A stretch of 64,000 nucleotides of DNA from Candidatus Omnitrophota bacterium (GTDB lineage Bacteria; Omnitrophota; Gorgyraeia; Gorgyraeales; Gorgyraeaceae). The stretch covers positions 92,245-156,244 of the forward strand of contig JBHPFI010000002.1 in assembly GCA_042572045.1 (NCBI GenBank), in the 5' to 3' direction. The position numbers were made by a program, and so were the translations under genes. This document shows positions 44,691-45,831 of this stretch, one piece after another; position 1 is the first letter of the stretch; the number at the start of each line of letters is the position of its first letter. The notes under the pieces were generated by a model. The model did not search any database. It was not told the DNA's origin and saw only the letters and a list, made by a program, of their open reading frames with translations.

Positions 44691-44710
44691 TGGCGGAGAG
44701 GCAGGGATTC
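44691..44710 (-). repeat. 20-nt duplicate of the tRNA-Ser(GCU) 3' end (distal att-like repeat)
   Basis: TGGCGGAGAGGCAGGGATTC is 20/20 identical to 45736-45755, in the same orientation. Confidence 0.85.
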
Positions 44711-45735
44711 TTGTATGCACGATTCCCTAACTTACCGTCGATAAATATGTTACGACATAAGCTTTTTATTGTCAAGGAATTAAGGATTCCACCTGTTTTC
44801 CTCTAGTTTGCTGTATTTTACTTTTAGTTTGTCTCAAATCTGTCACAAGAATTACGCTTTGGATGGGTACGATTTGGACACTGAATTTTATTTTAAATGG
44901 CTAATAGAGCACCTTCTCGTAATTACTCTTCAATTTTTCCTTTAAAAATAAATGCTATATTATGATAAAAGTGGGTGGATGTAATATGTTTATCGAAATA
45001 AGTAGGCACATACACTTGTTTCTTAAATTCTTTGTAATTTAAGCCATCGGTAATATTTTTCAATAAATTCATTACAGTATTTGGACTATTTAAATTTTCA
45101 GAATTCCCTCCAAATTCAGGCCAGTAAGATGCTTGAGTATCTTCAATAACATATATCCCTCCATTATTTAGCAATGGGAATAGCGTCTTAAAGGTAGTAA
45201 TAACATGTTCATTTATATGACTCCCATCATCAATTATAATGTCCAAGGAACCAATTTTATCAAATACATTCCTTAGAAATTTTTCATCGCTTTGATCGCC
45301 TCGGAATGTTTTTATGCGCTTTTCTTGCATAAAACTTTTATCATAAATATCTATCCCATAAATAATGCTATTTGAAAAATATCGCTTCCACATCCGCAAT
45401 GACCCGCCACCTTTATTTAATCTTTTACCTTCTCCAATACCGATTTCTAAAATATTTAATTTCTTTTTTCTTAAATGATGGAAATATTTCTGATAATATT
45501 GAATATAATTATGGTACTCGGGTCTTTTATCAGTCCTATATAGTACTGAGAGCTCATTTAAATTTCGAGAATATATTCGTGACAAAAGGTGAACGAATAA
45601 TTTTCTGATTGCTTCATATTGATTGTGTGAAAATACTTTTTTAAAAAATATGTAAATTAAATATATTTTATTTTTTAACATTTTACATTTTCGAAATATT
45701 TAAACTTTACTTATTGAACACCCTCTATGCAAGAC
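44711..45735 (-). mobile_element. about 1.0-kb single-gene insertion at tRNA-Ser(GCU)
   Basis: Bounded by the 20-bp direct repeat. It carries only the methyltransferase gene and no recombinase. Confidence 0.6.
44923..45681 (-). CDS. class I SAM-dependent methyltransferase
   Basis: 252 aa. ILEIGIGEG SAM loop, DIIIDDGSH and GGIYVIED. Confidence 0.75.
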   Translation of the reverse strand: MLKNKIYLIYIFFKKVFSHNQYEAIRKLFVHLLSRIYSRNLNELSVLYRTDKRPEYHNYIQYYQKYFHHLRKKKLNILEIGIGEGKRLNKGGGSLRMWKRYFSNSIIYGIDIYDKSFMQEKRIKTFRGDQSDEKFLRNVFDKIGSLDIIIDDGSHINEHVITTFKTLFPLLNNGGIYVIEDTQASYWPEFGGNSENLNSPNTVMNLLKNITDGLNYKEFKKQVYVPTYFDKHITSTHFYHNIAFIFKGKIEE

Positions 45736-45831
45736 TGGCGGAGAGGCAGGGATTCGAACCCTGGGTACGACCTTTCAGCCGTACAACGGTTTAGCAAACC
45801 GCCGCATTAAACCAGACTATGCAACCCCTCC
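45736..45831 (-). tRNA. tRNA-Ser(GCU): tRNA-Ser (anticodon GCU), long variable arm, CCA encoded
   Basis: GGAGGGGTTGCATAGTCTGG...GGTTTGCTAAACC...CAGGGTTCGAATCCCTGCCTCTCCGCCA. The acceptor stem has one G-U pair. Confidence 0.85.

What the first reader, a model, noticed from the sequence alone, without database searches (positions are those of the whole stretch)
44691..45831. One-gene insertion at tRNA-Ser(GCU) flanked by a 20-bp tRNA-end direct repeat
TGGCGGAGAGGCAGGGATTC (CCA, discriminator, acceptor strand, T-stem and into the T-loop) occurs at 44691-44710 and again as the true 3' end of the tRNA at 45736-45755. The 1,025 bp between them hold a single, visibly very AT-rich methyltransferase gene and nothing resembling a recombinase. 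This is a classical T-loop-type att duplication, but the enclosed element is far smaller than any autonomous integrative element.
Basis: seen in the sequence. Interest (0 to 1): 0.55.

Follow-up and report, generated by a model that had tools for sequence, protein, structure and literature searches.

The report
One-gene island inserted in tRNA-Ser
A 1-kb piece of foreign DNA carrying one sugar-methyltransferase gene sits in the end of a serine tRNA gene of an uncultivated Omnitrophota bacterium, bounded by the usual 20-bp duplication but with no recombinase; it is a very small example of an ordinary kind of genomic island.

Summary
TGGCGGAGAGGCAGGGATTC occurs exactly twice (44691-44710 and 45736-45755), with none expected by chance. 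The second copy is the 3' end (T-loop to CCA) of an intact tRNA-Ser(GCU) on the minus strand. The 1,025 bp between the copies hold one intact gene (44923-45681, minus strand). It encodes a MycE/TylE-type sugar O-methyltransferase catalytic domain and is the lowest-GC gene in the window (27.8% against 39.3%).

It is an insertion. At least ten related Omnitrophota loci keep the order tadA, tRNA-Ser(GCU), dnaX, recR, with 5-372 bp between the tRNA and dnaX; 5-95 bp in the six closest. The sequence after the window's partial copy is homologous to the sequence directly after the intact tRNA in two relatives.

No integrase or integrase remnant was found in the insert or anywhere in the 64-kb window. 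No near-identical copy of the cassette exists in the databases searched.

The same 20-mer lies beside tyrosine integrase genes in viral contigs. The best reading is therefore an integrase-made, T-loop-type integration that is now non-autonomous, like a cis-mobilizable element (CIME) or a decayed islet. The gene is probably expressed by read-through in the tadA-tRNA-dnaX operon.

This is a new, unusually small member of a known kind, and interest is modest. Four more distant relatives carry unexplained 130-150-bp inserts bounded by the same kind of repeat at this tRNA.

The parts
45736..45831 (-). Intact tRNA-Ser(GCU) gene with encoded CCA. This is the integration target, and its last 20 nt form the proximal repeat.
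   Evidence: ARAGORN; Rfam tRNA model 51.9 bits against a gathering score of 29.
45736..45755 (.). Proximal copy of the 20-bp direct repeat (attL core): T-loop GAAUC, 3' T-stem strand, 3' acceptor strand, discriminator and CCA.
   Evidence: Exact match, 0 expected by chance; position within the tRNA from the Rfam alignment.
45682..45735 (-). 54-bp non-coding segment between the tRNA 3' end and the methyltransferase start codon. It belongs to the insert and has no similarity to the empty-site flank of relatives.
44923..45681 (-). The only gene of the insert: 252 aa, a MycE/TylE-type class I SAM-dependent sugar O-methyltransferase catalytic domain. It is intact and runs in the same direction as the tRNA and dnaX.
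   Evidence: PDB 3ssm (E = 2e-57) and 8ia9, named demethylmacrocin O-methyltransferase; Pfam Methyltransf_24, below the cut-off; phrog_21658; 3,619 homologs, the best 61-64% identical and covering 94-98% of the query; GC 27.8%.
44711..44922 (-). 212-bp non-coding distal part of the insert. It holds GATTCCCT at 44721-44728, an imperfect inverted repeat (7 of 8) of the core's first bases set 10 bp away, which looks like a core-type half-site. It also holds a sigma-70-like TTGACA-17-TAACAT at 44775 to 44747 pointing towards dnaX.
   Evidence: Sequence; promoter scan; fold of the junction; no ORF with homologs; no similarity to any fetched locus; no integrase remnant.
44691..44710 (.). Distal copy of the 20-bp direct repeat (attR core). 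This is the displaced native 3' end of the tRNA.
   Evidence: It abuts sequence homologous to the tRNA-downstream sequence of L081 and L189.
44592..44690 (-). Native tRNA-dnaX intergenic region, 99 bp, with a hairpin at about 44657-44681. In relatives this sequence follows the tRNA directly.
   Evidence: Alignments A1 and A3; fold; GC 40.4%.
42903..44591 (-). dnaX (DNA polymerase III gamma/tau), the conserved downstream neighbour of the tRNA. It marks the edge of native DNA.
   Evidence: Pfam; synteny in relatives.
45872..46330 (-). tadA (tRNA adenosine deaminase), the conserved upstream neighbour of the tRNA.
   Evidence: Pfam; tadA followed by tRNA-Ser(GCU) in 34 of the 80 metagenome loci and in all four genome loci L186-L189.

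Best explanation
A 1,025-bp segment of foreign, AT-rich DNA entered the 3' end of the tRNA-Ser(GCU) gene by site-specific recombination of the tyrosine-integrase, T-loop type. The crossover lay in the T-loop. The incoming DNA carried its own copy of the last 20 nt of the tRNA, so the tRNA gene was rebuilt (attL, 45736-45755). The original 3' end was pushed 1,045 bp away and now sits next to the old tRNA-dnaX spacer (attR, 44691-44710). The segment now carries no recombinase and so cannot move by itself. It is a CIME-like islet: both att sites kept, integration genes absent. Either the recombinase part was lost or left (by deletion, or by excision of a partner integrated in tandem), or the recombinase always acted from elsewhere. 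Its single gene encodes a MycE/TylE-type sugar O-methyltransferase, a family otherwise found mostly in surface-glycan gene clusters, so it probably methylates a sugar of a cell-surface glycan. The gene points the same way as tadA, the tRNA and dnaX, and no terminator is predicted. It is therefore probably transcribed by read-through, and dnaX expression survives the insertion. What is shown: the repeat, the intact tRNA, the insertion relative to empty sites, the foreign composition, the absence of a recombinase, and the enzyme family. What is inferred: the integrase mechanism, the history of the element, the substrate, and co-transcription.
For: The repeat is exact and non-random and the tRNA is intact. 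Empty sites: L081 has pabB, tadA, tRNA, 95 bp, dnaX, recR, porG; L082 has a 28-bp gap with dnaX 89% identical; L186-L189 have gaps of 43, 14, 5 and 66 bp. L117, L096, L086 and L106 also lack the gene. The flank after the partial copy (CCCTTCGACAGGC...GATCCTGAG) aligns with the sequence directly after the intact tRNA in L081 and L189. The gene has the lowest GC in the window, z = -3.1. The same 20-mer occurs as a partial tRNA copy 55-455 bp from PF00589 tyrosine integrase genes in viral contigs L169, L171 and L172. It is also part of the roughly 45-bp repeat bounding a 13.4-kb provirus in L170. The junction carries a half-site-like inverted repeat. No terminator-like site lies in 44400-46000. 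Enzyme family: PDB 3ssm and 8ia9, E about 1e-57, with the DDGSH and ED motifs aligned. Homologs sit in glycan clusters with glycosyltransferases, Wzy and DUF2079. One homolog lies just beyond the distal repeat of a tmRNA-integrated 6-kb integrase island. Integrase-less att-flanked elements, and 20-bp T-loop repeats around low-GC islands, are described in PMC5704250 and PMC3146451.
Against: No integrase, excisionase or remnant of either is detectable in the insert, and no recombinase homolog turns up in the 64-kb window. The recombinase step is therefore inferred only from the shape of the junctions. No larger parent element was found at this site in any relative. There is also no debris of decayed genes, which a deletion history might have left. 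The closest relatives are only 71-89% identical in DnaX, so the time of insertion is poorly bounded. Reads were not available, so neither excision nor the correctness of the assembly could be checked. The methyltransferase substrate is unknown, and the protein lacks the N-terminal auxiliary domain of MycE.
Confidence: 0.73

Rival explanations
1. The element is not a remnant but a working minimal cassette: one gene plus a complete attP. In circular form the non-coding 212 + 20 + 54 = 286 bp would be contiguous. An integrase encoded elsewhere in the genome, or on a visiting element, would excise and integrate it in trans, much as integron cassettes or CIMEs depend on a partner.
For: Both repeats are perfect and there is no gene debris. 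The combined non-coding part has about the size of a typical tyrosine-integrase attP (general knowledge). The junction carries a half-site-like inverted repeat. Four other loci carry integrase-less segments bounded by the same kind of repeat at the same tRNA. CIMEs are known to be mobilised by partners (PMC5704250).
Against: No second copy or near-identical cassette exists among 5.8 billion proteins; the best is 61-64% identical and the gene's own cluster has one member. Phage genomes gave no match either. No viral contig carries the same junction pattern. No integrase was found in the window. Nothing shows excision.
Confidence: 0.15
2. The partial tRNA copy is older than the gene. The locus would once have held a short repeat-bounded segment like those in L103, L130 and L141, and the methyltransferase gene entered that segment later by some unrelated route.
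For: Four distant relatives have a second copy of the tRNA 3' end 130-150 nt downstream with no gene between the copies.
Against: The six closest relatives have no second copy; their best match is 9-11 of 17 in the direct orientation and 10-12 of 17 in the inverted one, both at background level. The window's 54-bp and 212-bp non-coding parts show no similarity to those short segments. No inverted repeats, target duplications or transposase flank the gene.
Confidence: 0.07
3. Assembly artefact: a low-GC fragment from another organism was joined into the contig through a shared 20-mer.
For: The insert differs by about 10 GC points from its surroundings. The source is a metagenome-assembled genome. 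A 20-bp overlap equals k-1 for a k = 21 assembly graph (my own knowledge of assemblers).
Against: Two independent false joins at the same 20-mer would be needed, or a 1,045-bp circle, which would itself be the excised element. The structure matches a biological integration exactly: tRNA restored, native flank after the distal copy, gene co-oriented. Final assembly k values are normally much larger than 21.
Confidence: 0.04
4. The repeat is a chance match or a local duplication unrelated to the origin of the gene, and the arrangement is ancient and fixed.
For: None beyond the short length of the repeat.
Against: 100 shuffles gave 0 matches. The gene is absent from all ten syntenic relatives examined. 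Its composition is foreign.
Confidence: 0.01

Closest known systems
CIMEs (cis-mobilizable elements), defined for ICESt1-related elements of Streptococcus thermophilus and reviewed in PMC5704250
   Same: Flanked by attL and attR at the 3' end of a target gene, with no integration or transfer genes. Thought to arise by decay of an integrative element and to move only with a partner.
   Different: This element is about 1 kb with a single gene and no recognisable decayed modules. Described CIMEs are typically many kilobases (my own knowledge). No partner element is known, the host is an uncultivated Omnitrophota bacterium, and mobilisation has not been shown.
Dehalococcoides ssrA genomic islands (PMC3146451)
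   Same: [quoted passage not shown] Some tandem islands lack the integration module and are interpreted as cis-mobilizable.
   Different: Those islands target tmRNA rather than a tRNA, use a serine recombinase (DsiB), are much larger and occur in tandem arrays. Here there is a single repeat pair and no recombinase of any class.
tRNA-integrating prophages and genomic islands with tyrosine integrases (for example viral contigs L169, L171, L172 and the 13.4-kb provirus L170 fetched here)
   Same: They use the same tRNA-Ser 3'-end sequence as att core. L179 carries a 21-nt partial copy that starts at almost the same T-loop position.
   Different: They encode a PF00589 integrase within 55-455 bp of the core and are at least 10 kb long. 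The window element has neither feature.
Integron gene cassettes
   Same: One promoterless gene plus one recombination site, non-autonomous, dependent on a recombinase acting in trans and on an outside promoter.
   Different: There is no attC-type imperfect palindrome, no IntI and no attI platform, and the target is a tRNA gene. This is a functional analogy only.
MycE / TylE macrolide-sugar 2'-O-methyltransferases (PDB 3ssm, 8ia9)
   Same: The catalytic domain aligns over residues 40-251 with E about 1e-57. The DDGSH and ED motifs align with what I recall as the metal ligands and catalytic base of MycE.
   Different: The roughly 160-residue N-terminal auxiliary domain is missing. The genomic context of homologs points to surface glycans, not macrolide pathways.

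Membership tests
tRNA-targeted integrative genomic island (tyrosine-integrase type) | Inserted at the 3' end of a tRNA gene, with a direct repeat of the tRNA 3' segment at the far boundary | tested here: met
   Exact 20-bp repeat at 44691-44710 and 45736-45755.
tRNA-targeted integrative genomic island (tyrosine-integrase type) | The tRNA gene is restored intact | tested here: met
   ARAGORN and Rfam calls.
tRNA-targeted integrative genomic island (tyrosine-integrase type) | Unoccupied site in related genomes | tested here: met
   L081, L082, L186-L189, L117, L096, L086, L106.
tRNA-targeted integrative genomic island (tyrosine-integrase type) | Composition differs from the host | tested here: met
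   Gene GC 27.8% against 39.3 with sd 3.8, z = -3.1.
tRNA-targeted integrative genomic island (tyrosine-integrase type) | Encodes its own integrase | tested here: not met
   One gene only. tblastn with six tyrosine integrases and one serine recombinase found nothing in the insert or in the window.
tRNA-targeted integrative genomic island (tyrosine-integrase type) | Excises to give a circular form and an empty site | not testable with these tools
   Needs reads or an experiment.
CIME (cis-mobilizable element) | Retains attL and attR | tested here: met
   Both 20-bp cores are identical. Whether they are functional is unknown.
CIME (cis-mobilizable element) | Lacks integration and transfer genes | tested here: met
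CIME (cis-mobilizable element) | Derived from an ICE or IME by decay | tested here: inconclusive
   No remnant genes and no larger relative were found at this site.
CIME (cis-mobilizable element) | Mobilised in cis after accretion with an incoming element | not testable with these tools
   Needs an experiment or population data.
MycE/TylE-type sugar O-methyltransferase | Class I SAM-binding catalytic domain with aligned metal-binding and base residues | tested here: met
   3ssm alignment over query residues 40-251, with DDGSH and ED conserved. The roles of these residues come from my memory of the MycE structure paper.
MycE/TylE-type sugar O-methyltransferase | N-terminal auxiliary (oligomerisation) domain | tested here: not met
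   The match starts at residue 183 of the 419-residue chain, and the query has only about 40 residues before it.
Insertion sequence / MITE | Terminal inverted repeats, a short target-site duplication, a transposase or a multi-copy family | tested here: not met
   No terminal inverted repeats at the ends, no transposase, single copy in the window.

The most novel reading that the evidence does not exclude
The T-loop of tRNA-Ser(GCU) in Omnitrophota and neighbouring lineages is a recurrent docking site for miniature integrative elements that carry no integrase. These range from 130-150 bp of non-coding DNA (L103, L130, L141, L087) to this attP-plus-one-gene cassette. They would be moved in trans by an integrase encoded elsewhere, as a tRNA-based counterpart of integron cassettes.
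Probability: 0.12. Interest if true: 0.6.

Novelty: new member of a known kind. Interest (0 to 1): 0.3.

Why it matters
This is a clean, well-bounded example of horizontal gene gain in a phylum known only from metagenomes. The insertion point, the empty site and the cargo are all defined to the base. It shows that tRNA-targeted site-specific integration operates in Omnitrophota. It also shows that a single surface-glycan modifying gene can be added inside an essential operon (tadA, tRNA-Ser, dnaX, recR) without breaking it. The element's very small size makes it a convenient test object for asking how little DNA an att-flanked element needs in order to be mobilised. Beyond that it does not change what is known about genomic islands.

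Tried and rejected
- SRP RNA or another known RNA between the tRNA and dnaX, prompted by the Bacillus order tadA, scr, dnaX: Rfam gave only the tRNA.
- Integrase pseudogene in the 212-bp and 54-bp non-coding parts: tblastn with six integrases gave only noise. The short ORFs have no features.
- Recombinase elsewhere in the window: none by tblastn or phmmer.
- Same cassette elsewhere: no protein above 64% identity. The exact-sequence look-up of the gene found no contig on record. There was no phage match and no viral contig with the same junction pattern. Viral relatives of the enzyme are only 41-42% identical.
- Closest genome relative from the genome collection (L001, dnaX 70% identical): the region upstream of dnaX is not syntenic and has no tRNA, so it was uninformative.
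- Conserved hairpin RNA as the explanation for the short repeat-bounded segments in L103, L130 and L141: only L141 folds better than shuffles (z = -6.3). L103 and L130 do not, and Rfam finds nothing. I did not build a covariance model.
- A retroelement primer-binding-site reading of the TGG... 20-mer: rejected, because the copy is simply a direct repeat in the orientation of the tRNA gene and there is no reverse transcriptase or LTR.
- Non-coding homology between the insert's flanks and any fetched locus, including the tmRNA island L168: none.

Full report
**Observation.** The sequence TGGCGGAGAGGCAGGGATTC occurs at 44691-44710 and at 45736-45755 and nowhere else in the window, even with three mismatches allowed. 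None of 100 dinucleotide-preserving shuffles gave a match. ARAGORN and the Rfam tRNA model both call a tRNA-Ser(GCU) at 45736-45831 on the minus strand. Read on the minus strand, the repeat is GAATCCCTGCCTCTCCGCCA. That is the last bases of the T-loop, the 3' strand of the T-stem, the 3' acceptor strand, the discriminator and an encoded CCA. Identity ends on both sides of the 20 bp. The 1,025 bp between the copies hold a single credible gene, 44923-45681 on the minus strand, 252 aa.

**The gene.** The protein matches the catalytic domain of two solved sugar O-methyltransferases. These are 3ssm (E = 2e-57, query residues 40-251 against chain residues 183-395) and 8ia9, deposited as demethylmacrocin O-methyltransferase.
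- The DDGSH and ED motifs are aligned. From memory of the MycE structure work, these are the metal ligands and the catalytic base.
- The N-terminal auxiliary domain of those enzymes is absent.
- Pfam gives only a sub-threshold Methyltransf_24 hit, NCBIfam nothing useful, and PHROGs a methyltransferase family.
- The protein has 3,619 homologs. The best are 61-64% identical and cover 94-98% of its length, so the gene looks intact. Several sources name them demethylmacrocin O-methyltransferase or rhamnosyl O-methyltransferase/CmcI, and the top named hits are from Omnitrophota.
- The window's own protein is in NCBI as a class I SAM-dependent methyltransferase of a Candidatus Omnitrophota bacterium on a 163-kb contig. 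Its cluster has one member.

Homologs mostly sit inside surface-glycan clusters, next to glycosyltransferases, Wzy, DUF2079 and PMT_2. Others lie beside mobile DNA. P0002 is next to an HTH_32 protein. P0008 begins 145 bp beyond the distal repeat of a 6-kb integrase island inserted in a tmRNA gene.

**It is an insertion.** A scan of metagenome contigs with TadA returned 80 loci. In 34 of them tadA is followed by tRNA-Ser(GCU), as it is in all four genome loci L186-L189, so that pairing is ancestral.
- In the relatives closest to the window, dnaX follows the tRNA almost at once.
- L081 has pabB, tadA, tRNA, 95 bp, dnaX, recR, porG. L082 has a 28-bp gap, and the first 158 residues of DnaX are 89% identical.
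- A search with DnaX showed that nothing closer than 74% full-length identity is on record.
- Four genome contigs from that group (L186-L189) have pabB, tadA, tRNA-Ser(GCU), dnaX, recR and the por genes (L187's contig ends within dnaX), with 43, 14, 5 and 66 bp between the tRNA and dnaX.
- None has a methyltransferase there, and none has a second copy of the tRNA end. Their best match is 9-11 of 17 in the direct orientation (10-12 of 17 in the inverted one), which is background.
- L117, L096, L086 and L106, which are more distant, also lack the gene.

The 99 bp between the window's partial copy and dnaX begin CCCTTCGACAGGC...GATCCTGAG. This aligns with the sequence that directly follows the intact tRNA in L081 (...CGAAGGC...GATCCTGAG) and in L189 (CCCTACG...). 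The partial copy is therefore the original end of the tRNA gene, still attached to its original downstream DNA. Everything between it and the present tRNA end is new.

**Composition.** The gene has 27.8% GC and 23.3% GC3. The 55 genes of the window average 39.3% (sd 3.8) and 37.9% (sd 5.8). It is the lowest-GC gene in the window, z = -3.1. Homologs in other genomes are only 1-5 points below their own loci, so family bias does not explain the 11-point gap here.

**No recombinase.** The non-coding parts of the insert are 54 bp next to the tRNA and 212 bp at the far end. They contain only ORFs of 45 aa or less. tblastn with six tyrosine integrases taken from the fetched loci gave only noise on the insert. 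Those six queries plus one serine recombinase found nothing below E = 0.04 on the whole 64-kb window. The genes I read in the surrounding 20 kb are housekeeping or small unknowns.

**Is this core a real att site?** An exact search of viral contigs for the 20-mer gave 12 loci.
- Five hold the 20-mer as a partial tRNA copy without a full tRNA: L171, L172, L174, L178 and L179; L169, where ARAGORN also calls no tRNA, carries a much longer stretch reaching the anticodon loop.
- In L169, L171 and L172 a PF00589 tyrosine integrase gene lies 55-455 bp from the core.
- L179 has a 21-nt partial copy that starts one base before the window's.
- L170 is a 13.4-kb provirus in a tRNA-Ser(GGA), with an integrase next to the tRNA and a repeat of about 45 bp that includes the 20-mer.

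Tyrosine integrases that use this part of tRNA-Ser therefore exist. At the window's distal junction the insert contributes AGGGAATC ten bases before GAATCCCT. This is a 7-of-8 inverted repeat that imitates the T-arm, as the element-borne half of a core site would. That is suggestive, not statistically strong.

**Mechanism and history.** The junctions are those of an integrase-mediated T-loop integration. Published parallels exist.
[quoted passage not shown] These include tandem islands without an integration module, interpreted as cis-mobilizable (PMC3146451).

The window element fits that definition at the level of sequence. How it lost, or never had, an integrase cannot be decided here.
- Against an active family: no near-identical copy exists anywhere.
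- Against simple decay: no debris and no larger relative at this site.
- The tmRNA locus L168 shows how an integrase element and a methyltransferase-bearing segment can lie in tandem on either side of a repeat. Excision of the integrase part from such a tandem would leave an arrangement like the window's. This is an analogy, not evidence.

**Expression.** In relatives dnaX starts 5-95 bp after the tRNA, so it is very likely transcribed with tadA and the tRNA. The inserted gene has the same orientation. No terminator-like site is predicted between 44400 and 46000. A TTGACA-17-TAACAT match at 44775 to 44747 points towards dnaX. The insertion is thus compatible with continued dnaX expression and with read-through expression of the new gene. 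This is inference.

**Rivals.** A trans-mobilised minimal cassette is possible (about 0.15). An older partial copy later invaded by the gene is unlikely, because the closest relatives lack any second copy (about 0.07). An assembly artefact would need two false joins at one 20-mer and cannot be fully excluded without reads (about 0.04). Chance is excluded.

**An unexplained side observation.** In four more distant tadA/tRNA-Ser(GCU) loci the tRNA's own 3' end, starting at the same T-loop position, recurs 130-150 nt downstream.
- L103, L130 and L141 match 17 of 17 and L087 matches 15 of 17. The other 32 loci score 9-12 of 17 in the direct orientation.
- No gene lies between the copies.
- The interiors of L103, L130 and L141 share short motifs.
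- L141 forms a very stable hairpin whose 5' arm is an inverted copy of the tRNA end (z = -6.3), but L103 and L130 do not fold better than shuffles. Rfam finds nothing.
- These may be scars of T-loop integration or miniature elements. They show that duplications of this tRNA end without an integrase are recurrent in this group.

**Verdict.** The element is an unusually small, integrase-less, att-flanked islet carrying a sugar O-methyltransferase. It is a new member of a known kind, of modest interest.

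Noticed in passing
L103:5707-5872; L130:1937-2117; L141:2391-2576; L087:2636-2820: In four distant relatives the 3' end of tRNA-Ser(GCU), starting at the same T-loop position, is repeated 130-150 nt downstream of the tRNA with no gene between the copies. The copy matches each lineage's own tRNA. L141 also has an inverted copy and folds into a very stable hairpin (z = -6.3), while L103 and L130 do not fold better than shuffles. There is no Rfam match.
   Followed up: partly
L168:2639-10079: A tmRNA gene is followed by a 6-kb island with a tyrosine integrase, bounded by a 17-nt repeat of the tmRNA 3' end (3085 and 9127). 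A 63%-identical homolog of the window's methyltransferase starts 145 bp beyond the distal repeat, followed by a PIN-domain gene. This may be a tandem (accreted) arrangement, but the contig ends before any third repeat.
   Followed up: partly
window 51245-51321 and 45872-46330; L081-L130: tRNA-Arg(ACG), the substrate of TadA, lies just upstream of tadA in most related loci, and tRNA-Ser(GCU) just downstream. In the window, pabB, a DUF3047 gene and a sulfatase gene separate tRNA-Arg(ACG) from tadA.
   Followed up: no
L170:246-13739: A 13.4-kb provirus in a high-GC host sits in tRNA-Ser(GGA). It is bounded by a repeat of about 45 bp running from the anticodon arm to the 3' end, which contains the same 20-mer. 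An integrase gene lies directly next to the tRNA.
   Followed up: partly
L186:9724-11202; L189:10402-12441; window 39203-40138: The pyruvate:ferredoxin oxidoreductase beta-subunit gene (TPP_enzyme_C) of two relatives is enlarged and carries LAGLIDADG or Hint/intein hits. The window's copy (311 aa) has the same length as the intein-free copy in L188.
   Followed up: no
L001:240-262: The closest genome-collection relative (dnaX 70% identical) has different genes upstream of dnaX and no tRNA. The 10-mer CTCTCCGCCA, identical to the tRNA-Ser 3' end, occurs about 940 bp upstream of dnaX. This may be chance or a trace of a rearranged tRNA locus.
   Followed up: no
window 57698-59330: A 126-nt (42-codon) tandem repeat of about 12 copies lies inside the 693-aa ORF at 57568-59649. 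It looks like a repeat-domain protein.
   Followed up: no
L092:1325-2502: tRNA-Ser(GCU) is followed by tRNA-Met and then directly by a PF00589 tyrosine integrase gene. This is a probable island at the neighbouring tRNA-Met in a relative.
   Followed up: no
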